Source of the DNA: a virus
Lineage: Duplodnaviria > Heunggongvirae > Uroviricota > Caudoviricetes
Virus record (IMG/VR): IMGVR_UViG_3300021438_000001
Location: 39,453-103,452 of that record
Strand: one strand, 5' to 3'
DNA length: 64,000 nucleotides
The notes beneath the pieces are model-generated. The model ran no database searches. It saw nothing but the letters and a program-made list of their open reading frames with translations, and was not told the DNA's origin. The position numbers and the translations under genes are program-made. Positions within the stretch are counted from its first letter, which is position 1. Each line of letters starts with the position of its first letter. Shown here piece after piece: positions 2,702-31,094 of this stretch.

Positions 2702-3352
2702 ATGAACGTCGCCCAGTATTACAACGAGAACGTGGGCCTCGTCCACGCCGTCACGAAGAAGGGCTTCGCTCGTCTTCAGAAGGCGGGCGTGGCGATGGAC
2801 TATGAAGACGTGTTTCAGGAGATGTCTGTCGTCTTCGTGAAAGCGTGTGAGGGCTTTCAAGCCGACAAAGGCTTTAAGTTCAGCACGTACTTCTTCATTG
2901 CCGCGCAGAACAAGTTGGCGAGCTGGACGAAGAAGATCATCGAGGAGCGCCTTGTCCACAAGGTTGTGAGCATCGAGGAGATGAACCACAACCACGGTGG
3001 CGAGGAGCTTGACCTCGAAAGCATCCTTCCAGGCGACCGCACAACGCCGGAAGACATTGCAAGCGCCAAGCAGTGTGTCGCAGACCTGGCGAAGTCACTC
3101 TCGCCAGTCGCGGCGCAGATCATCGAGTGGATGGTCGAACCCCCGCAAGCTCTGCTGGATGAGTTCAACCGACTGGAAGCTCACGCTGCGTTCGCCCGAA
3201 GCATTGGCTTCGAGCAGCGGTTCAGCGCCCAACTGTCACCGCGCTATGTGGGGCAGTTCTTGGTTCTGTTGGGTGTCAGTGACACTCAAGTCAAATCTGC
3301 CTTGCGTGAGATCAAGTCCTACGCGCAGAACCAAATTGGCAAGTTTTTCTGA
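2702..3352 (+). CDS. sigma-factor-like protein (region-2-like segment)
   Basis: Segment FKFSTYFFIAAQNKLASW resembles sigma70 region 2.2-2.3; translationally coupled to the CobS-like stop. Confidence 0.35.
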   Translation: MNVAQYYNENVGLVHAVTKKGFARLQKAGVAMDYEDVFQEMSVVFVKACEGFQADKGFKFSTYFFIAAQNKLASWTKKIIEERLVHKVVSIEEMNHNHGGEELDLESILPGDRTTPEDIASAKQCVADLAKSLSPVAAQIIEWMVEPPQALLDEFNRLEAHAAFARSIGFEQRFSAQLSPRYVGQFLVLLGVSDTQVKSALREIKSYAQNQIGKFF

Positions 3353-4048: not shown

Positions 4049-4310
4049 GTACCGCACAACAACCTATTGGAGCGCGACGCTGCCCGATCCACTCACGCCA
4101 CCGGCCCCTGGCTTTCGATTGCGTGATTTTAAGGCGGTAACAACCTCTGAATCGGAATCGCACACGGTAGTGGATAGGATCAGCTCAATTGCCAATTCAA
4201 GTGGCGTCTATTCGGGCATCAATATCCCCTACACGCAAAGCGTCATGAAGAGCAAGACGATTCAGTGGGTGGTCTTGTGGGAAAAATATGTAGAACAGGA
4301 GAATGAATGA
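4041..4310 (+). CDS. hypothetical small protein
   Basis: 89-aa ORF; ATGA overlap with the dnaE start. Confidence 0.25.
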   Translation: MYEYRTTTYWSATLPDPLTPPAPGFRLRDFKAVTTSESESHTVVDRISSIANSSGVYSGINIPYTQSVMKSKTIQWVVLWEKYVEQENE

Positions 4311-7300
4311 ACTTGAATCACATGATGGCAGCGAGGTCTGACTTCAGCATTGGCGAATCAATGCTCCAGATCGAACACCTCGTTGCCGACGCAAAGGAGA
4401 AGGGCTATGAGTCCATCACGCTGATGGATACAATGTCACTGCACGGCATGGTGGACTTCACCAACCGCTGCAAGAAAGCAGGCATCAAGCCGATTATCGG
4501 CTGCCGCATTCGTGTCTACGAAGACCCCACCTACCGCAAGCCGAGCAAGGCAAGCGGTGAGCGCGAGAAGCCCAACCCGAGCTTTGGACTGAAGGTCTAC
4601 ATCAAGACTGAAGCCGGCGTCCACGCGCTGATGAAGCTGCTGTCCAAAGGCTTCACCAACGAGTACTTCTACTATCACGCCAGGGTAGGGCTGGCAGATG
4701 TGCTGACGCTCGGCGCTGATGATGTGGCGGTTTCGACTGGCGACCTGTTCAGCATCTGGCACCTCGAACCGACAGTCGTCCAGAACACCATTGAACAGCT
4801 TCAGAGCCACTTCGGTGCGGCCAACGTCTTCGCTGAGTTGTCCCCGATCAACACGCCCCTGTTCGACACGCTCAACGCAAAGGCGATCACCGCAGCTCGT
4901 GCGAACGCCATGCCGCTGCTGGTGACTTACCCCACCTTCTACCGCGATGCAGATGCTGCGGATAGCCTTGAGGTGCTGAACTGCATTACCTCGAACACCA
5001 AAATGGAAGCCGCCTGGCGCCCCATTCAATTCGTCAAAGACTTCTACATTCACGAGCCGAACAAGCTGGTGGAGCGCATCAAGGGCGCAAGCAAGCGGCT
5101 CGCTGAGTTCTCCGCCACCGCAGATGCAAAGGCGTGGGTTGAAGGGCTGTCCAATGTCGAGAAGCTGGTTGAAGACTGCTCGTTCCAGTTTGCCAAGCTG
5201 CCGGTGTCGCTGCCCAAGATGGCCGACAACGAGTTCTTGGCGCTCGGTAAGAAGTGCATCGAGGGCTGGAAGCGCCGCTTCGAGAACCCCGTTCTCGGTC
5301 ACAAGCCCAATGCGGCTGAACTGAAGGTCTACCAAGAGCGGCTGAACTACGAGCTTGGCGTTCTTAAGAAGATGGGCTTCGCAGGCTACTTCTTGCTCGT
5401 GGAAGACCTCGTGATGTGGGCAAAGAAGAACAACATCATCGTTGGCCCAGGTCGTGGTTCGGTGGGTGGTTCGCTGGTCGCCTACCTGATCGGCATCACA
5501 GACGTTGACCCCATCCGATTCGACCTCCTGTTCGAGCGTTTTATCAACCCCGAACGTCTTGACTTGCCAGATGCTGACTTGGACTTCATGTCTTCGAAGC
5601 GCCATCTGGTGATCGAGTACTTGACGGCAAAGTACGGTCTGGATCGCGTTGCAGGCATTTCGAACTACTCGACGCTTGCGAGTGCCTCCGCGCTGCGTGA
5701 CAGTGGTCGCATGTACGGTCTGAATGGCATCGAGCTGACCGCTACCAAACTTGTCCCCAAAGAACACGGTCAATCGTTTTCACTGACCGATGCAGCGAAG
5801 GCTGTACCTGAGATCGACCTGTTCAGGAACGAACATCCGGAAATCTGGAAGCATGCCTTGAACCTCGAAGGGGCAATGCGAGCGTTCGGTCGCCACGCCG
5901 CTGGCGTGGTCGTCGCTGGTGAGCCGCTGGTCAACCGTGCCGTCGTGGAGACGCGAGGGGATGACGCATCGCCAATCGTGTCTTGGGACAAGCGAGTGGT
6001 TGAAGACTGGGGCTTGGTCAAGATGGATATTCTGGGCCTCTCCACGCTCGACGTGCTGGAGATCGCCCGTCAGTACATCAACGACCGTCACGGCGTTGCC
6101 ATTGACTACATGCAACTGCCGCTTGAAGAGACGGACATTATGGAAGCCTTCGGTCGTGGTGACACAACCGGCGTCTTCCAGTTCGAATCGCCAGGCATGA
6201 AGAAGCTGCTCCGTGACCTTGCTGTCGGCGGTACGCTGACCTTCGAGGACATTACCGCTGCGACTGCTCTGTATCGTCCAGGCCCGATGGACTCAGGTCT
6301 GATGGACGACTACGTTGCGATCAAGCAAGGGGTGAAGTCGCCGTACTACGACCACCCCAACATGGAACCCGCGCTTCGCTCCACCAACGGCGTGATCGTC
6401 TATCAGGAGCAGGTGATGCAGGTGGCGGTCGATCTTGCTGGCTTCACTCGCGCAGAAGCCGACCATCTGCGTAAAGCGATGGGCAAGAAAGACAAAGACA
6501 AGATGGCGGAAATGCGCCAGAAGTGGATCGACGGCTGTCTCGCCACGTCCGGACTCGATGACCGCACCGCCGGCAACATCTTCGATAAGATCGAAGCCTT
6601 CGCAGGTTACGGTTTCAACAGAAGCCACGCCGTTGAGTATTCCATCATCAGCTACTGGACGATGTGGGTGCGAGTGCGCTACCCCGCCGAGTACTTCGCC
6701 GCCTGTATGTCGATTGTGGACGAAGAGAAGCTGCCAGGGCTGGTGTCGGACGCTCGGGAGTACAAGATTCAGGTGATGCCACCTGATCTGAACACGTCCT
6801 CGCATCGGTACACCATCCCAGACGACAAGACCATCTTGGCACCGTTCTCTGCGGTCAAGGGCATCAGCGAGAACACCGCCTTGCGTATCGTTGAACTGCG
6901 AGAGCGCAACCGCACTTGGAAGCTGGAGCGCGTGAAGAAGAAGCGTGACGGCACGACGGAGAACATCTACGAGCTGGATGAGACTTCGCCGGTCAAGGGG
7001 CGCTTCGACTCGCCTGATGAGTTCGTGATGGCTGCCGCGCAGCCAGGCTCGAAGGTGAACAGCAAGGTGGTGGAGAACCTGCGTCTCGTGGGTGCGTTTG
7101 CAGCCATTGACCCCGCAGAGCTGTCACCGCTGCACTTCAGCCGCCGCAAAGCCCAGATGGAGCTTCTGCCTGGACTGATCATTGACGATGTGAAGGCTGA
7201 CCGCACGACCGATCTGAGCGCCGGCTTCGTCCGCACCAAGATCATCGAGGTGGTTCAGGACTACAAGAAGTGCAGTGGCTGCACTCTGGCTGGCGAACCA

Positions 7301-7777
7301 CATCCGAGCATTCGCTGCAAGACGAACGTCCGCTTCATGGTGGTGTCCGACTGTCCGACCTGGCAGGAGGAGAAGAAAGACAAGCTGCTCGAAGGCGACT
7401 CGGCTCAGTACATCAAGCAGGCGATCAAAGACGCCGGCCTGTCAGTGACTGACGGCTACTACACCACGCTGGTCAAGGCGAAGAAGAGCGACAAGTTCTT
7501 GGCGAACGAACAGATCAACGGCTGTGCCAAGTTCATCGACCGCGAGCTGGAGCTGATCAAGCCTGCGATCATCGTTGCGCTCGGTTCGGCCACGATCAAG
7601 AAGTTCTTGCCGTCCATCAAGGGCGGAACCGCTGAGTTGGCCGGCAAGTCGTTCTACGACCCCAAGCTCGATGCCACGATTGTCTGTGGCATCAACGCGC
7701 AGCAGATTGGCTTCGATCCGACCAAGCAAGACGTTTTGGATGAGGTGTTCCGCAAAGTCGCCGACATTCTCGCCTAA
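4307..7777 (+). CDS. dnaE: DNA polymerase III alpha subunit (DnaE-type replicase) with a C-terminal family-4 UDG-like domain
   Basis: PHP domain at the N-terminus. Core motif GFAGYFLLVEDLVMWAKKNNIIVGPGRGSVGGSLVAYLIGITDVDPIRFDLLFERFINPER. The last ~170 aa (from CSGCTLAGEPHP ... KPAIIVALGSATIKKF) match the family-4 uracil-DNA glycosylase fold pattern. Confidence 0.9.
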   Translation: MNLNHMMAARSDFSIGESMLQIEHLVADAKEKGYESITLMDTMSLHGMVDFTNRCKKAGIKPIIGCRIRVYEDPTYRKPSKASGEREKPNPSFGLKVYIKTEAGVHALMKLLSKGFTNEYFYYHARVGLADVLTLGADDVAVSTGDLFSIWHLEPTVVQNTIEQLQSHFGAANVFAELSPINTPLFDTLNAKAITAARANAMPLLVTYPTFYRDADAADSLEVLNCITSNTKMEAAWRPIQFVKDFYIHEPNKLVERIKGASKRLAEFSATADAKAWVEGLSNVEKLVEDCSFQFAKLPVSLPKMADNEFLALGKKCIEGWKRRFENPVLGHKPNAAELKVYQERLNYELGVLKKMGFAGYFLLVEDLVMWAKKNNIIVGPGRGSVGGSLVAYLIGITDVDPIRFDLLFERFINPERLDLPDADLDFMSSKRHLVIEYLTAKYGLDRVAGISNYSTLASASALRDSGRMYGLNGIELTATKLVPKEHGQSFSLTDAAKAVPEIDLFRNEHPEIWKHALNLEGAMRAFGRHAAGVVVAGEPLVNRAVVETRGDDASPIVSWDKRVVEDWGLVKMDILGLSTLDVLEIARQYINDRHGVAIDYMQLPLEETDIMEAFGRGDTTGVFQFESPGMKKLLRDLAVGGTLTFEDITAATALYRPGPMDSGLMDDYVAIKQGVKSPYYDHPNMEPALRSTNGVIVYQEQVMQVAVDLAGFTRAEADHLRKAMGKKDKDKMAEMRQKWIDGCLATSGLDDRTAGNIFDKIEAFAGYGFNRSHAVEYSIISYWTMWVRVRYPAEYFAACMSIVDEEKLPGLVSDAREYKIQVMPPDLNTSSHRYTIPDDKTILAPFSAVKGISENTALRIVELRERNRTWKLERVKKKRDGTTENIYELDETSPVKGRFDSPDEFVMAAAQPGSKVNSKVVENLRLVGAFAAIDPAELSPLHFSRRKAQMELLPGLIIDDVKADRTTDLSAGFVRTKIIEVVQDYKKCSGCTLAGEPHPSIRCKTNVRFMVVSDCPTWQEEKKDKLLEGDSAQYIKQAIKDAGLSVTDGYYTTLVKAKKSDKFLANEQINGCAKFIDRELELIKPAIIVALGSATIKKFLPSIKGGTAELAGKSFYDPKLDATIVCGINAQQIGFDPTKQDVLDEVFRKVADILA

Positions 7778-20567: not shown

Positions 20568-20644
20568 AGCGGGTTAGCTCAGTTGGTTAGAGCGCCGGAT
20601 TCATAATCCGGAGGCCGCAGGTTCGAGTCCTGTGCCCGCAACCA
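20568..20644 (+). tRNA. tRNA-Met (anticodon CAT; could be Ile-lysidine type)
   Basis: Cloverleaf read by hand: D arm GCTCAGTTGGTTAGAGC, anticodon loop TTCATAA, T arm GCAGGTTCGAGTCCTGT, 3' ACCA; position 1:72 is an A-A mismatch. Confidence 0.7.
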
Positions 20645-20645
20645 T

Positions 20646-20721
20646 TCCCTAGTAGCTCAGTTGGTAGAGCAATGGACTGTTAATCCATGTGTCGGTGGTT
20701 CGAACCCACCCTGGGGAGCCA
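20646..20721 (+). tRNA. tRNA-Asn (GTT)
   Basis: Acceptor TCCCTAG/CTGGGGA, anticodon loop CTGTTAA, T loop GGTTCGAAC, 3' GCCA. Confidence 0.8.
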
Positions 20722-20816
20722 TCAAGACTGTTCTCTCTAAGAGGCAACCGTCCCGCAGCGCGAGTCGTACCGTGCCGCATCGACTAACGCCCACCAGAGA
20801 ACAGCCTTGATGGAAC
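20722..20816 (+). ncRNA. structured spacer element A (candidate stable sRNA)
   Basis: 13-bp closing stem CAAGACTGTTCTC / GAGAACAGCCTTG (one mismatch); internal conserved boxes TCTAAGAGGCAAC and GCCCACCAG shared with element B. Confidence 0.35.
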
Positions 20817-20891
20817 GCTCGGTTCGTCTATCGGTAAGGACACTGGCCTTTCACGTCAGTAAGGCGGGTTCGATTCCCGCACCGAGTACCA
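20817..20891 (+). tRNA. tRNA-Glu (TTC)
   Basis: Acceptor GCTCGGT/ACCGAGT (G1-U72), anticodon loop CTTTCAC, T arm GCGGGTTCGATTCCCGC, 3' ACCA. Confidence 0.75.
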
Positions 20892-20894
20892 GTT

Positions 20895-20971
20895 CGGAGA
20901 TTAGCGCAGTCTGGTAGCGCATCTGCTTTGGGAGCAGAGGGTCGTAGGTTCGAATCCTACATCTCCGACCA
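20895..20971 (+). tRNA. tRNA-Pro (TGG)
   Basis: Acceptor CGGAGAT/ATCTCCG, D arm GCGCAGTCTGGTAGCGC, anticodon loop TTTGGGA, 3' ACCA. Confidence 0.8.
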
Positions 20972-21063
20972 TGAAGTTTGGTCACTCTAAGAGGCAACGG
21001 CTAGGTTCCCTGATTCTGATTCGGGGAGGCGATGTTAAGCCCACCAGTGACCAAACTTGATGG
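20972..21063 (+). ncRNA. structured spacer element B (paralog of A; candidate stable sRNA)
   Basis: Perfect 12-bp closing stem AAGTTTGGTCAC / GTGACCAAACTT; same CTCTAAGAGGCAAC and GCCCACCAG boxes as A; ends ...CTTGATGG like A. Confidence 0.35.
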
Positions 21064-21150
21064 GTAGATAGACTTGTAGGGGGCAAGAGCGGACTGTAAA
21101 TCCGTTGTTCTGCGGAACCCCACTGGCTCGACTCCAGTTCTGCCCACCAC
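21063..21150 (+). tRNA. tRNA-Tyr-like (GTA) with long variable arm, irregular 5' half; possible pseudogene
   Basis: Clean anticodon arm GCGGA-CTGTAAA-TCCGT, variable hairpin GTTCtgcgGAAC, T arm ACTGGctcgactCCAGT and 3' TCTGCCC-A-CCA. No 5' strand pairs with the 3' acceptor: GGGCAGA is needed but GGTAGAT/GGGCAAG is found. Confidence 0.3.
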
Positions 21151-21226
21151 GCCACCTTAGCTCAGTTGGTAGAGCAGCTGCCTTGTAAGCAGAAGGTCTG
21201 GGGTTCGATTCCTCAAGGTGGCACCA
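21151..21226 (+). tRNA. tRNA-Thr (TGT)
   Basis: Acceptor GCCACCT/AGGTGGC, anticodon loop CTTGTAA, T arm TGGGGTTCGATTCCTCA, 3' ACCA. Confidence 0.8.
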
Positions 21227-21328
21227 TCATGAGTGAAGACTTCTGGGTTCGATTCCCAGGGGACGGGTGAAACTAAAACGGCTAACTACCGACCTATCCC
21301 GAGCTGGACGAAAGTCTTCACCCATGAT
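21227..21328 (+). ncRNA. structured spacer element C (candidate sRNA or tRNA-derived remnant)
   Basis: 15-bp closing stem CATGAGTGAAGACTT / AAGTCTTCACCCATG (one mismatch); contains a perfect tRNA T-arm-like hairpin CTGGGTTCGATTCCCAG; ends ...CATGATGG. Confidence 0.3.
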
Positions 21329-21404
<76 letters not shown>

Positions 21405-21405
21405 A

Positions 21406-21490
21406 GCCCAGGTGGTGAAATTGGTAGACGCAACAGCTTCAGGTGCTGTCGCCGCAAGGCGTGCCGGTTCGAGTCCGGCTCTGGGCACCA
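21406..21490 (+). tRNA. tRNA-Leu (CAG), type II
   Basis: Acceptor GCCCAGG/TCTGGGC, anticodon arm ACAGC-TTCAGGT-GCTGT, long variable arm, discriminator A, CCA. Confidence 0.8.
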
Positions 21491-21491
21491 C

Positions 21492-21576
21492 GCGCTCGTG
21501 GTGGAATTGGTAGACACGCTGTCTTGAGGTGGCAGTGCCGAAAGGTGTGGGAGTTCGAGTCTCCCCGAGCGCACCA
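21492..21576 (+). tRNA. tRNA-Leu (GAG), type II
   Basis: Acceptor GCGCTCG/CGAGCGC, anticodon arm CTGTC-TTGAGGT-GGCAG (anticodon GAG), long variable arm, discriminator A, CCA. Confidence 0.7.
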
Positions 21577-29794: not shown

Positions 29795-29940
29795 AGGGTG
29801 CGATTTTGTTCCAGGGCATCTACCTGATGCCTGGATCACAAGCTCACAAGCTCCACACCGAGAAGAAGTGGGCCGAACTCACTGCTCACATGAAGGAGCT
29901 GGATGACAAGAAAAAGAAGTTGGAAGGAACAACGAAATGA
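29791..29940 (+). CDS. hypothetical 49-aa protein
   Basis: ATGA-coupled on both sides. Confidence 0.25.
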   Translation: MKGAILFQGIYLMPGSQAHKLHTEKKWAELTAHMKELDDKKKKLEGTTK

Positions 29941-31094
29941 GTACCTTTGCCTGTCCAGTGGTTCGCATCAAGATCGAGCCGCATCCGAACGCTGACGCCA
30001 TCGAGATCGCTCGTGTCGGCGACTACCAGTCCATCGTCAAGAAGGGCCAATTCAACGAAGGCGACCTGGCGGTCTACATCCCCGAGCAAGCGGTGCTGCC
30101 GCAGTGGTTGCTGGAGCTGATGGGTTTCTGGGACGCGATCAAGGTCAAAGGCAGCCTCTCTGGTTCGCTCGGCAATCGTGTCAAGGCGATCAAGCTGCGC
30201 CAAGTGCTGTCGCAGGGCCTGATTCTCGGCATCGAGGTCGCTGAAGACCGTATCGGCAACCCGCTGCGCCAGCTCCAAGAGGGTGAGGACGTGTCTTCGT
30301 ACCTTGAGATCGTCAAGTACGAGCCTCCCATCCCCTCGCACATGGCTGGTCGCATCGTTGGCGTCGATCTGGCTGCCACCCTGAACTACGACTTTGAGAA
30401 CCTGAAGAAGAACCCCGAACTGTTCGAGGACGGCGAGGAGGTTGTCATCACGGAGAAGATTCACGGCACCTTCATGCAAATCGGCGTCGTGCCTTCGGAG
30501 ATGGCGAACGAACGCTACTACAAGGGTCGCGTCATCGTGTCCAGCAAGGGTATGGGTGCGAAGGGCTACATCCTCGACCACACCGACGAGACGAACCTCT
30601 ACGTCCAAACAGCCAAGAAGTACGGTCTATTGGACTCGACGCTCGAATACTTCGGTGACGCTGCCGACGATGTGGGCAAGCCTTACTTCATCTGCGGCGA
30701 AGTGTTCGGCAAGACACCTGAAGGCAAGGGTGTTCAGGATTTGGTCTACAACGGCGAGGTCTTGGGCTTTCGCATGTTCGACGTGTGCTGTGGCACTCGC
30801 GGTCAGCAGGAGTTCTTCGACTTCGAGTCCTTCTGCGATGCCGCCATGTCGCTGAATGCTCCGATTGCGCCGGTTCTCTATGTTGGGCCGTACAGCAAAG
30901 AGGTCGTCCTTCACCACACAGATGGCAACACTGTGGTGCAGCCAGAGGTCACGCGCAACTACATCGCGCAGATTCGTGAAGGCGTCGTTGTGAAGTCGAT
31001 TAGCGAGCTTCCTCACAAGCGTTACGGTCGCAAGATCGCTAAGAGCGTGAGCGAAGCGTACCTCCTGCGCAAGAACGCCACTGAGTTCAACTGA
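29937..31094 (+). CDS. RNA ligase-family nucleotidyltransferase fused to an N-terminal tRNA-binding (Myf/EMAP-like OB) domain
   Basis: N-terminus VVRIKIEPHPNADAIEIARVGDYQSIVKKGQFNEGDLAVYIPEQAVLP matches the PheT/CsaA tRNA_bind pattern (hPNADkL...Vd.G...iV.GA.N). Covalent nucleotidyltransferase motif I is present as TEKIHGT (KxHG). Confidence 0.55.
   Translation: MSTFACPVVRIKIEPHPNADAIEIARVGDYQSIVKKGQFNEGDLAVYIPEQAVLPQWLLELMGFWDAIKVKGSLSGSLGNRVKAIKLRQVLSQGLILGIEVAEDRIGNPLRQLQEGEDVSSYLEIVKYEPPIPSHMAGRIVGVDLAATLNYDFENLKKNPELFEDGEEVVITEKIHGTFMQIGVVPSEMANERYYKGRVIVSSKGMGAKGYILDHTDETNLYVQTAKKYGLLDSTLEYFGDAADDVGKPYFICGEVFGKTPEGKGVQDLVYNGEVLGFRMFDVCCGTRGQQEFFDFESFCDAAMSLNAPIAPVLYVGPYSKEVVLHHTDGNTVVQPEVTRNYIAQIREGVVVKSISELPHKRYGRKIAKSVSEAYLLRKNATEFN

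What the first reader, a model, noticed from the sequence alone, without database searches (positions are those of the whole stretch)
21227..21330. Third structured spacer (element C) with an embedded perfect tRNA T-arm hairpin
The region between tRNA-Thr and tRNA-Trp is closed by a 15-bp stem (CATGAGTGAAGACTT / AAGTCTTCACCCATG) and ends CATGATGG like A and B. It contains CTGGGTTCGATTCCCAG, a canonical T-stem-loop, but no other cloverleaf parts. It may be a tRNA-derived or tRNA-mimicking sRNA, a decayed tRNA, or a third member of the A/B family with a different interior.
Basis: seen in the sequence. Interest (0 to 1): 0.65.

Follow-up and report, generated by a model that had tools for sequence, protein, structure and literature searches.

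The report
Rearranged tRNA look-alike in phage tRNA operon
The 102-base gap between two phage tRNA genes is a conserved folded RNA cassette, not a tRNA, that carries tRNA parts in shuffled order behind a long clamp helix; similar unannotated cassettes occur in many phage tRNA clusters, and their function is unknown.

Summary
Window 21227-21328 lies exactly between the CCA end of tRNA-Thr and G1 of tRNA-Trp. It is closed by a helix of up to 19 bp with one A.C mismatch, and it contains a perfect 17-nt T-arm. Neither ARAGORN nor Rfam calls a tRNA or any known family there.

One ortholog exists, in the same slot of a related 105-kb phage contig (L025). Its 70-nt interior differs at 1 position. Its stem differs at 5 of 32 positions, all of which keep or repair pairing. 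This argues against a decaying tRNA.

The parts run: clamp helix, T-arm, a 9-bp hairpin abutting the T-stem, GA, then GCU-GGACGAA-AGU (D-arm-like), then the clamp helix again. That is the order of a tRNA circularly permuted at the anticodon loop, as in bacterial Y-RNA-like YrlA. A covariance model built only from unannotated modules of cultured Klebsiella, Erwinia and Xanthomonas phages hits C over its full length (about 23 bits). One tRNA-tRNA junction scores the same.

C fails the membership tests for YrlA, tRNA, tmRNA and the known ribozymes. Its clamp-helix ends match the neighbouring A/B cassettes; its interior does not.

Best reading: an accessory, exchangeable tRNA-mimic RNA that is co-transcribed with the tRNAs and excised from the operon. 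Its function is inferred, not shown.

The parts
20568..21576 (+). Operon of 9 tRNA genes (Met, Asn, Glu, Pro, Tyr, Thr, Trp, Leu, Leu), each with an encoded CCA. Most neighbours are 1-3 nt apart. Three long structured spacers (A, B, C) interrupt it.
   Evidence: ARAGORN, Rfam tRNA hits, sequence.
21151..21226 (+). tRNA-Thr(UGU). Its 3' CCA (21224-21226) can form the outermost 3 pairs of the clamp helix of C.
21227..21242 (+). 5' strand of the clamp helix (UCAUGAGUGAAGACUU). In the alternative register the last four bases, ACUU, form a variable-loop-like linker.
   Evidence: MFE fold. Two compensatory double changes and one repaired mismatch against L025. R1 alignment.
21243..21259 (+). Perfect T-arm: 5-bp stem CUGGG/CCCAG and loop UUCGAUU. 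The U54/U55/C56 equivalents are 21248-21250.
   Evidence: local match to the T-arm of the mascRNA model. The 21-mer is identical to the 3' part of tRNA-Asn genes in unrelated phages.
21260..21300 (+). Acceptor-like ('AS') hairpin that starts at the first base after the T-stem. It has a 9-position helix GGGACGGGU/ACCUAUCCC (one C.A, one G.U), a 10-nt bulge, and a 3-bp tip with loop CUAACUA.
   Evidence: Only 1.4% of shuffled interiors give such a helix in this register. One substitution against L025 (A21275G, in the bulge).
21301..21315 (+). GA + GCU-GGACGAA-AGU: a D-arm-like segment with GG in the loop. Its last four bases (21312-21315, AAGU) also belong to the 3' strand of the clamp helix, so the two pairings are alternatives.
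   Evidence: R1 aligns it to UAGCUUAAAUGGACGAAAGUG of the cultured-phage modules. In 2 Mb of held loci, the GGANGAAAG motif downstream of a T-loop occurs only in C, L025-C, L112 and L114, plus one ordinary tRNA-Ser.
21312..21328 (+). 3' strand of the clamp helix (AAGUCUUCACCCAUGAU). It ends directly at G1 of tRNA-Trp.
21329..21404 (+). tRNA-Trp(CCA). Cleavage by RNase P at its 5' end would create the 3' end of C (inferred).
   Evidence: established knowledge of RNase P.
20722..20816 (+). Element A: clamp helix, conserved internal loop CUAAGAGG / CCCACC, and a variable hairpin.
   Evidence: 12 of 26 predicted pairs show compensatory changes in 12 family members.
20972..21061 (+). Element B: same family as A.

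Best explanation
Element C is a functional, accessory structured-RNA cassette within the phage tRNA operon. It is a tRNA mimic whose parts lie in the order of a tRNA circularly permuted at the anticodon loop.

The order is: a 12-19 bp clamp helix (standing in for the anticodon stem, and involving the CCA of tRNA-Thr), a canonical T-arm, an acceptor-like hairpin stacked directly on the T-stem, two bases (GA), a shortened D-arm or D-loop (GCU-GGACGAA-AGU), and then the clamp helix again. This is the topology of bacterial Y-RNA-like YrlA.

Proposed mechanism:
- Inferred: C is co-transcribed with the nine tRNAs.
- Inferred from the exact abutment to tRNA-Trp: RNase P cleavage at G21329 makes its 3' end.
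- Inferred, enzyme unknown: 3'-end maturation of tRNA-Thr at CCA|U makes its 5' end.
- Inferred: the released RNA of about 102 nt has both ends locked in a long helix, which resists exonucleases, and displays a T-loop/D-loop elbow.
- Analogy only: it is handled by T-arm-recognising enzymes (TruB, TrmA) and acts in trans as a decoy or tether for a tRNA-binding host or phage factor, as YrlA tethers Rsr.

Shown: the anatomy, the conservation pattern, and the resemblance to a wider class of unannotated phage modules. Not shown: transcription, processing, partners and function.
For: Placement and non-tRNA status.

Conservation:
- One ortholog sits in the same Thr-Trp slot of L025.
- Stem: 5 of 32 positions changed. 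Interior: 1 of 70. Fisher p = 0.011.
- Two compensatory pairs (G:C to A:U and A:U to G:C) and one A.C repaired to A:U.
- In the same two genomes, element A is 67% identical and the RNR 3' end is 80% identical.

Topology:
- The Rfam YrlA consensus runs stem - 4 nt - T-arm - 15 nt - UA - D-arm - stem.
- Chen et al. 2014 (PMC4201824) describe T, AS and D stem-loops in that order.
- C runs stem - T-arm - hairpin - GA - GCU GGACGAA AGU - stem.
- The hairpin abuts the T-stem. Chance of this register is 1.4%.

Model test: model R1 was built without C, from modules of Klebsiella KNP2 and IME260, Erwinia Hena1 and pEp_SNUABM_01, Xanthomonas XbC2 and Klebsiella VAC51. It hits C at 22.9 bits (E about 4e-4) and L025-C at 23.7 bits, both full length, and aligns the clamp helix, T-arm and GAGCU--GGACGAAAGU.

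Wider class: stem-closed modules with a T-arm directly after the 5' strand follow a CCA in many viral contigs, and also form the intervening sequence of permuted tmRNA genes.

Clamp helices of the neighbouring cassettes covary strongly.
Against: - Only two sequences of C exist. No pair in the T-arm, hairpin or D-like part is tested by covariation.
- R1 gives 23.3 bits to the tRNA-Leu/tRNA-Leu junction in the same window, and 25 bits to a Met/Asn junction in L031. Its specificity is therefore limited.
- Rfam YrlA does not hit C at E<=10.
- nhmmer finds no sequence relative of the interior in 2 Mb of phage tRNA regions.
- The D-arm is reduced to 3 pairs, and these compete with the top of the clamp helix. 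The compensatory pair 21239/21315 favours the clamp helix.
- The position equivalent to U8 is G.
- An in-silico re-permutation is called a tRNA by ARAGORN, but so are 5 of 20 shuffled-interior controls.
- The slot is empty or holds other cassettes in the closest relatives, so C is dispensable.
- There are no expression data.
Confidence: 0.45

Rival explanations
1. Cis-acting processing or insulator stalk. Only the long helix matters. It could be an RNase III-type site, as in the rRNA operon stalks, or a fold that shields the CCA and separates neighbouring tRNA folding units. The interior is an incidental loop.
For: Many unrelated phages share the architecture CCA-U[CG]A, long covarying helix, UGAUGG, with wholly different interiors. 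The CCA is complementary to the UGG after the helix in most modules seen. Interiors are swapped between close relatives in the same slot.
Against: The interior of C is more conserved than its stem (1/70 against 5/32). The A/B interiors keep an invariant motif across paralogues. An RNase III cut with a 2-nt stagger at CCA|U would remove G1 of tRNA-Trp (geometry worked out). tRNAs elsewhere in the array need no such stalk, since their spacers are 1-3 nt.
Confidence: 0.2
2. Non-functional remnant. C is a scar of recombination or tandem duplication between tRNA genes (the 3' part of one tRNA joined to the 5' part of another), drifting towards loss.
For: The T-arm plus GGGGA 21-mer is identical to the 3' part of tRNA-Asn genes in other phages. 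tRNA-tRNA junctions score like C with model R1. C is absent from most relatives.
Against: The interior is 98.6% identical between genomes that have diverged by 20-33% elsewhere, and all stem changes are compensatory. The clamp helix is far longer than any anticodon stem and matches the A/B-type cassette ends.
Confidence: 0.13
3. DNA-level element. C is a small mobile or recombination cassette whose terminal inverted repeats (CCATCA...TGATGG) serve an enzyme or homologous exchange at tRNA gene boundaries. RNA structure would then be secondary.
For: The termini are palindromic, so orientation is ambiguous. Cassettes occupy different slots and are exchanged between relatives. The same outer stem sequence occurs with different interiors: window A and the L049 Thr-Trp cassette both start TCAAGACTG.
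Against: Beyond the terminal 6 bases, the stems differ between copies and covary to keep pairing, which terminal repeats bound by one enzyme would not do. There are no near-identical copies within the genome. All cassettes lie in the tRNA transcription direction. This reading does not exclude the RNA function.
Confidence: 0.08
4. Self-cleaving ribozyme that frees the CCA end of the upstream tRNA, as proposed for HDV-like theta ribozymes next to phage tRNAs.
For: Theta ribozymes sit directly 3' of phage tRNAs (PMC10879173). C begins exactly after a CCA, and CGAAAGUC resembles part of a hammerhead core.
Against: No ribozyme family in Rfam hits at E<=10. The 5' end pairs with the 3' end, not with an internal P1 strand, so an HDV-like fold is excluded. 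The hammerhead CUGANGA box is absent (sequence).
Confidence: 0.04

Closest known systems
YrlA (bacterial Y-RNA-like RNA, Rfam RF02553; Chen et al. 2014, PMC4201824)
   Same: A long helix formed by the 5' and 3' ends. Inside it, a T-arm, then a closed acceptor-like hairpin, then a D-arm: a tRNA-like domain permuted at the anticodon loop. YrlA is also found in some phages and is processed from a longer precursor.
   Different: C is not hit by the YrlA model. It has no 4-nt variable linker in the fully stacked fold. Its D-arm is cut down to 3 pairs. It has G instead of U8. The GNCGAAN0-1G motif thought to bind Rsr is absent from the 5' strand; a matching GACGAAAG sits in the D-like loop instead. 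No Rsr/TROVE gene lies nearby. C sits inside a tRNA operon, abutting two tRNAs.
Unannotated T-arm/D-arm modules of cultured phages (Klebsiella KNP2/KB57 group, T5-like Klebsiella IME260/VAC51, Erwinia Hena1, Xanthomonas XbC2)
   Same: They follow a tRNA CCA. They have a covarying clamp helix of 11-14 bp, a T-arm, a variable hairpin, (U/G)A-GCU..GGACGAAAG, and then the clamp helix. Model R1, built from them, aligns C end to end.
   Different: They have a 4-nt linker (AGAU), a full 4-bp D-stem with a 10-nt loop, and a different middle hairpin. Similarity to C is not detectable by nhmmer. Their function is equally unknown.
Intervening sequence of permuted (two-piece) tmRNA genes, beta type (RF01850/RF04321)
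   Same: It lies between an encoded CCA and the G1 of the next tRNA-like 5' end and is removed by tRNA-processing enzymes (PMC11915505). In phage contigs L110, L111, L148, L164 and L170 it is a stem-closed module with a T-arm directly after the 5' strand, and in L110/L111 also a D-arm-like hairpin.
   Different: C is flanked by two ordinary tRNAs, not by the two halves of a tmRNA. Its interior sequence is unrelated.
Small stable RNAs encoded in phage tRNA clusters (T4 species 1 and 2 RNAs; own knowledge, not checked here)
   Same: Non-tRNA RNAs co-transcribed with phage tRNAs, released by tRNA-processing enzymes, of unknown function.
   Different: No sequence or structure comparison was possible with these tools.
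Elements A and B of the same window
   Same: The same slot type (between a CCA and the next tRNA). The same termini (CCAU[CG]A...UGAUGG). Clamp helices of 15-19 bp. The stem of C resembles the stems of A/B-type members in L028 and L029.
   Different: A and B have an internal loop CUAAGAGG / CCCACC and one variable hairpin, with no T-arm. C has a three-way junction with a T-arm.

Membership tests
tRNA (RF00005) | Cloverleaf in the order acceptor-D-anticodon-variable-T-acceptor, detectable by tRNA finders. | tested here: not met
   ARAGORN calls nothing in 21227-21328. The Rfam tRNA model has no hit at E<=10, even on the isolated 116 nt.
tRNA (RF00005) | Canonical T-arm (5-bp stem, loop UUCRANN). 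| tested here: met
   CUGGG-UUCGAUU-CCCAG at 21243-21259.
YrlA / bacterial Y RNA (RF02553) | Score above threshold with the YrlA covariance model. | tested here: not met
   No YrlA hit on C at E<=10. The related L112 module reaches only 12.6 bits against a gathering score of 69.
YrlA / bacterial Y RNA (RF02553) | Order: terminal helix - T stem-loop - acceptor-like stem-loop - D stem-loop - terminal helix. | tested here: inconclusive
   The terminal helix, the T-arm and the abutting hairpin are present in this order. The D stem-loop is only a 3-bp alternative that competes with the clamp helix. No covariation is available.
YrlA / bacterial Y RNA (RF02553) | GNCGAAN0-1G motif near the 5' end (putative Rsr contact). 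| tested here: not met
   The 5' strand UCAUGAGUGAAGACUU lacks it. GACGAAAG occurs only at 21307-21314, next to the 3' strand (definition).
YrlA / bacterial Y RNA (RF02553) | Encoded within about 4 kb of an Rsr/Ro60 (TROVE) gene on the same strand. | tested here: not met
   ORFs within 4 kb are the RNR, ThyX and small ORFs. There is no TROVE hit among the 30 largest ORFs of the 64-kb window. The rest of the roughly 105-kb genome and the host were not examined.
   C scores 22.9 bits (E about 4e-4) and L025-C 23.7 bits, both over model positions 1-108. A Leu-Leu tRNA junction scores 23.3, and other tRNA junctions reach 13-25 bits.
A/B cassette family of this phage group | Clamp helix starting right after a CCA, with termini U[CG]A...UGAUGG. 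| tested here: met
   CCA|UCAUGAG...CCCAUGAU|GG.
A/B cassette family of this phage group | Internal loop C[UA]AAGAGG ... CCCAC[CG] flanking one variable hairpin. | tested here: not met
   Absent from C.
tmRNA / permuted tmRNA | tRNA-like domain with an alanine-type acceptor end plus a tag reading frame. | tested here: not met
   No tmRNA is called by ARAGORN in the window. No Rfam tmRNA hit.
HDV-like (theta) ribozyme | Nested double pseudoknot in which the first about 7 nt after the cleavage site pair with an internal strand (P1). | tested here: not met
   The first 16 nt pair with the last 16 nt, supported by compensatory changes. No Rfam HDV-family hit.
Hammerhead ribozyme | Core boxes CUGANGA and GAAA around three helices. 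| tested here: not met
   CGAAAG is present, but no CUGANGA follows the first hairpin. No Rfam hit.

The most novel reading that the evidence does not exclude
Phage tRNA operons and the intervening sequences of phage permuted tmRNA genes may serve as expression platforms for a large, exchangeable repertoire of clamp-helix RNA cassettes. These would be cut out by the host tRNA-processing machinery. One widespread type would be a circularly permuted tRNA mimic (C, and the KNP2, T5-like, Hena1 and XbC2 modules) that works without a phage Ro/Rsr protein, for example as a decoy for tRNA-targeting defence nucleases or as a tether for host RNA-decay or repair enzymes.
Probability: 0.3. Interest if true: 0.8.

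Novelty: new variant of a known kind. Interest (0 to 1): 0.6.

Why it matters
Phage tRNA clusters are usually annotated as tRNAs plus 'spacers'. Here the spacers are conserved, covarying RNA structures. At least one type reuses tRNA parts in a permuted order known so far only from Ro-associated YrlA RNAs.

Close analogues sit unannotated in cultured phages that are easy to manipulate: Klebsiella T5-like and KB57-like phages and Erwinia Hena1. The question of what these RNAs do is therefore directly testable. Candidate roles are processing aid, tRNA decoy against anticodon or acceptor nucleases, or tether for RNA decay or repair.

The result also bears on how permuted tmRNA precursors are processed, and on annotation practice: some of these modules are at present labelled as hypothetical proteins or 'tRNA-OTHER'.

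Tried and rejected
- Rfam searches of the array and of C alone found nothing but tRNAs and noise.
- BLAST of C against 50,697 phage records found only T-arm fragments of tRNAs.
- An exact T-arm+GGGGA scan of IMG/VR found only two ordinary tRNA-Asn genes.
- nhmmer with C, or with its interior, against 2 Mb of phage tRNA regions found only window and L025.
- I looked for more orthologs through the downstream ORF and through 9 RNR-based contig look-ups. Many related arrays turned up, but no third copy of C.
- HDV-like and hammerhead folds were rejected on anatomy.
- An RNase III staggered cut at CCA|U was rejected because it would clip G1 of tRNA-Trp.
- An RNase P '12-bp ruler' cutting right after the CCA fits the tmRNA-IVS modules (8+4 or 7+5 bp), but not C (16+5 bp).
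- Split-tRNA idea: CCGTCCC in element A (20748-20754) is complementary to GGGACGG in C. No D-arm or anticodon context supports it, so I judged it chance.
- Similarity of the stem of C to the repeated motif AAGTCAYGAGTGA (TCATGAGTGA shared) is not conserved in L025, so I judged it chance.
- Re-permuting C in silico and running ARAGORN was inconclusive, because shuffled controls also give calls.
- The consensus promoter and terminator scan found nothing around the array.

Full report
**1. What is there**

The window is part of an uncultured phage of about 105 kb. It encodes DNA polymerase III alpha, RecA, SbcCD, a class II RNR, ThyX, an RNA ligase, terminase and portal. It has no near relative among 50,697 phage records.

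Directly downstream of the RNR gene lies an operon of nine tRNA genes, 20568-21576. Every tRNA has an encoded CCA, and most neighbours are 1-3 nt apart. Three gaps are long: A (20722-20816), B (20972-21061) and C (21227-21328).

C begins at the base after the CCA of tRNA-Thr and ends at the base before G1 of tRNA-Trp.

**2. The observation**

- The quoted 15-nt arms are present, with 14 pairs and one A.C mismatch. The helix extends to 19 positions if CCA(21224-21226) pairs with U21328-G21329-G21330.
- CTGGGTTCGATTCCCAG is at 21243-21259.
- The T-loop pattern occurs 8 times in 64 kb, all inside the array: 7 in tRNAs plus C. About one is expected by chance.
- The fold is -38 kcal/mol, z = -3.8.
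- ARAGORN and Rfam find no tRNA, tmRNA or other known family in C, even when the 116 nt are searched alone at E<=10.

**3. Relatives**

RNR-anchored searches of IMG/VR, JGI metagenomes and ENA/Logan assemblies brought in more than 30 related arrays.

Only one contains C: L025 7327-7428, on a 105.7-kb contig, in the same Thr-Trp slot.

- The two copies differ at 6 of 102 positions.
- Five of those are in the 32 stem positions. They give two compensatory pairs (G:C to A:U, A:U to G:C) and repair the A.C mismatch to A:U.
- One is in the 70 interior positions. Fisher p = 0.011.
- In the same genome pair, element A is 67% identical, the RNR 3' end 80%, and the tRNAs 90-100%.

C is therefore under selection for pairing in the stem and for sequence in the interior. 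It is not a decaying tRNA.

In the closest relatives the Thr-Trp slot is empty (L001, L228) or holds other stem-closed cassettes (L049, L229, L230). C is thus accessory and exchangeable.

**4. The cassette context**

A and B belong to a family found in at least 12 relatives. It has a clamp helix, an invariant internal loop C[UA]AAGAGG / CCCAC[CG], and a variable hairpin. Twelve of 26 predicted pairs show compensatory double changes.

All cassettes start right after a CCA with U[CG]A and end in UGAUGG, so the CCA can pair with UGG.

A pattern that fixes only these termini behind a tRNA 3' end finds the same architecture, with 16-20 bp helices and unrelated interiors, in many unrelated viral contigs.

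The stem of C (UCAUGAGUGAAGACUU) is close to the stems of A/B-type members in L028 and L029. C is therefore a third cassette of the same kind with a different interior.

**5. The interior of C**

After the 5' strand comes the T-arm with no linker. The next base then starts a 9-position helix, GGGACGGGU/ACCUAUCCC, with one C.A and one G.U. Only 1.4% of shuffled interiors give this register. Then come GA, GCU-GGACGAA-AGU and the 3' strand.

This is the order of a tRNA opened at the anticodon loop and closed at the acceptor end:

- the clamp helix stands for the anticodon stem;
- then the T-arm;
- then the acceptor-like hairpin;
- then positions 8-9;
- then the D-arm.

It is the published topology of YrlA, as described by Chen et al. 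2014 and as seen in the Rfam consensus: stem-uGUu-T arm-15 nt-UA-GCUC..GGUA..GAGC-stem.

**6. A wider class**

Some hits are tRNA 3' fragments. Many are stem-closed modules with a T-arm right after the 5' strand and often a clear D-arm before the 3' strand.

- Five of them (L110, L111, L148, L164, L170) are the intervening sequences of permuted, beta-type tmRNA genes. Such sequences are removed by tRNA-processing enzymes (PMC11915505).
- Two (L112, L114) are from cultured phages: Klebsiella IME260 (T5-like) and KNP2. Homologues occur in KB57-like phages, Proteus Mydo, Erwinia Hena1 and pEp_SNUABM_01, and Xanthomonas XbC2. All are unannotated or mis-annotated.
- These share with C the string (U/G)AGCU..GGACGAAAG just before the 3' strand. 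In 2 Mb of held sequence, that motif downstream of a T-loop occurs only in C, L025-C, L112 and L114, plus one ordinary tRNA-Ser.

**7. Model test**

I built a covariance model (R1) from six cultured-phage modules, not including C.

- It hits C at 22.9 bits (E about 4e-4) and L025-C at 23.7 bits, both end to end.
- It places ACUU as the variable linker and aligns GAGCU-----GGACGAAAGU to UAGCUUAAAUGGACGAAAGUG.

Caveat: the junction of the two paralogous tRNA-Leu genes scores 23.3. Other tRNA-tRNA junctions score 7-15 in the window and up to 25 elsewhere. Chen et al. warned of the same artefact.

The test therefore shows that C carries T-arm, D-like and closing-helix features as well as real tRNA parts arranged in permuted order. 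It does not prove common descent with the KNP2 family.

Re-permuting C in silico and running ARAGORN was inconclusive.

**8. Membership**

C fails the tests for:

- tRNA;
- tmRNA;
- YrlA: no model hit, no 5' GNCGAA motif, and no TROVE gene within 4 kb or among the 30 largest ORFs;
- HDV-like and hammerhead ribozymes.

It meets the clamp-and-termini criterion of the A/B cassettes but not their interior motif.

**9. Mechanism**

Shown: anatomy, conservation pattern, class resemblance.

Inferred:

- co-transcription with the tRNAs. A conserved upstream motif, AGTCA-N4-TGACTTGC..TATATAAGAT, precedes every related array, but the consensus scan is negative;
- the 3' end made by RNase P at G21329;
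- the 5' end made during maturation of tRNA-Thr;
- a stable RNA of about 102 nt with a tRNA elbow;
- action as a tRNA mimic.

The rival that only the helix matters (a processing stalk) remains serious, because the helix and its termini are the one feature common to all cassettes. It does not explain the interior conservation.

**10. Verdict**

C is a real, conserved, non-tRNA structured RNA. It is most likely a permuted tRNA mimic of the YrlA type in a new context, and one of a largely unannotated population of cassettes in phage tRNA clusters. Its function is open but testable in cultured phages.

Noticed in passing
window 20722-20816 and 20972-21061; L001-L005, L026-L029, L049, L229, L230, L233, L234: The A/B cassette family: a clamp helix plus an invariant internal loop C[UA]AAGAGG / CCCAC[CG] around a variable hairpin. 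12 of 26 pairs show compensatory changes. No Rfam match. Function unknown.
   Followed up: partly
window 17754, 20506, 21639, 26271, 27251, 38595, 41475, 56212, 60010 (+ strand): The motif AAGTCAYGAGTGA (part of the palindrome AGTCA-N4-TGACT) occurs 9 times, all on one strand, against 0.3 expected. Copies flank the tRNA operon and precede ORFs. The same palindrome sits upstream of the arrays in all relatives. It is probably a phage promoter or operator; a sigma-70-like gene lies at 2702-3352.
   Followed up: partly
IMG/VR loci L103/L074/L065, L077, L059/L053, L099/L055, L051, L066, L076, L075: In unrelated viral contigs, a tRNA CCA is followed by a 16-20 bp stem-closed module with the same termini, CCAU[CG]A...UGAUGG, and wholly different interiors. 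This points to a general boundary signal of unknown meaning.
   Followed up: partly
L110 3573-3661, L111 1606-1695, L148, L164, L170 (permuted tmRNA genes); L201 10892-10971 (between two tRNAs): The intervening sequence of phage beta-type permuted tmRNA genes is a stem-closed module. It has a T-arm, a conserved CAAGGACA...ACACUUGCGG core and a D-arm-like hairpin. The same module type also sits between two tRNAs in L201. In these modules, clamp plus T-stem totals 12 bp, the length of the RNase P ruler.
   Followed up: partly
L180 (- strand orientation) about 2831-2905: A 75-nt module between two tRNAs that reads as a clean permuted tRNA: GGUGG-UAG-T arm-CCCAGGGC-CAA-GCCCUGGG-UU-D arm-G-CCACC. 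The acceptor stem is capped by a 3-nt loop.
   Followed up: no
L004 3110-3210, L011 8975-9100, L229 and L230 Asn-Thr spacers: Another cassette family, ending in ..CCACUGCUUCAUGUGA before its 3' strand. Further families: ..AUCGGCUCAC..GUAGGCCCGAC.. in L024, L229 and L230; and GGUYGGGCCAG..CUGGCA in L049, L001, L024 and L228.
   Followed up: no
L026 6921-7028; L029 about 7390-7490: A tRNA-like sequence of about 95 nt ending in ..UUGUCCACCA, with a T-arm GAGGGUUUGACCCCCUC, that ARAGORN does not call. It may be an unusual long-arm tRNA. In addition, tRNA-Tyr genes in L027 and L028 are missed by ARAGORN.
   Followed up: no
window 29937-31094: An RNA ligase gene (PF09414 with an N-terminal PHA02142 OB fold) in a phage with a tRNA operon and tRNA-like cassettes. 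A link to tRNA repair or to cassette processing is possible.
   Followed up: no
window 4307-7777: DNA polymerase III alpha (PHP, NTPase, finger and HhH domains) with a C-terminal uracil-DNA glycosylase superfamily domain (residues 1004-1105) in one ORF.
   Followed up: no
window 20748-20754 against 21261-21267: CCGTCCC inside element A is the exact complement of GGGACGG, the strand that follows the T-arm in C. It could hint at an A-C interaction, but it is about what chance allows.
   Followed up: partly
GenBank records of Klebsiella phages KNP2, KB57, IME260 and VAC51, Proteus Mydo, Erwinia Hena1: The T-arm/D-arm module is unannotated, or is overlapped by 'hypothetical protein', 'major capsid protein', 'tRNA-OTHER' or other gene calls in several records. 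These are likely annotation errors.
   Followed up: no
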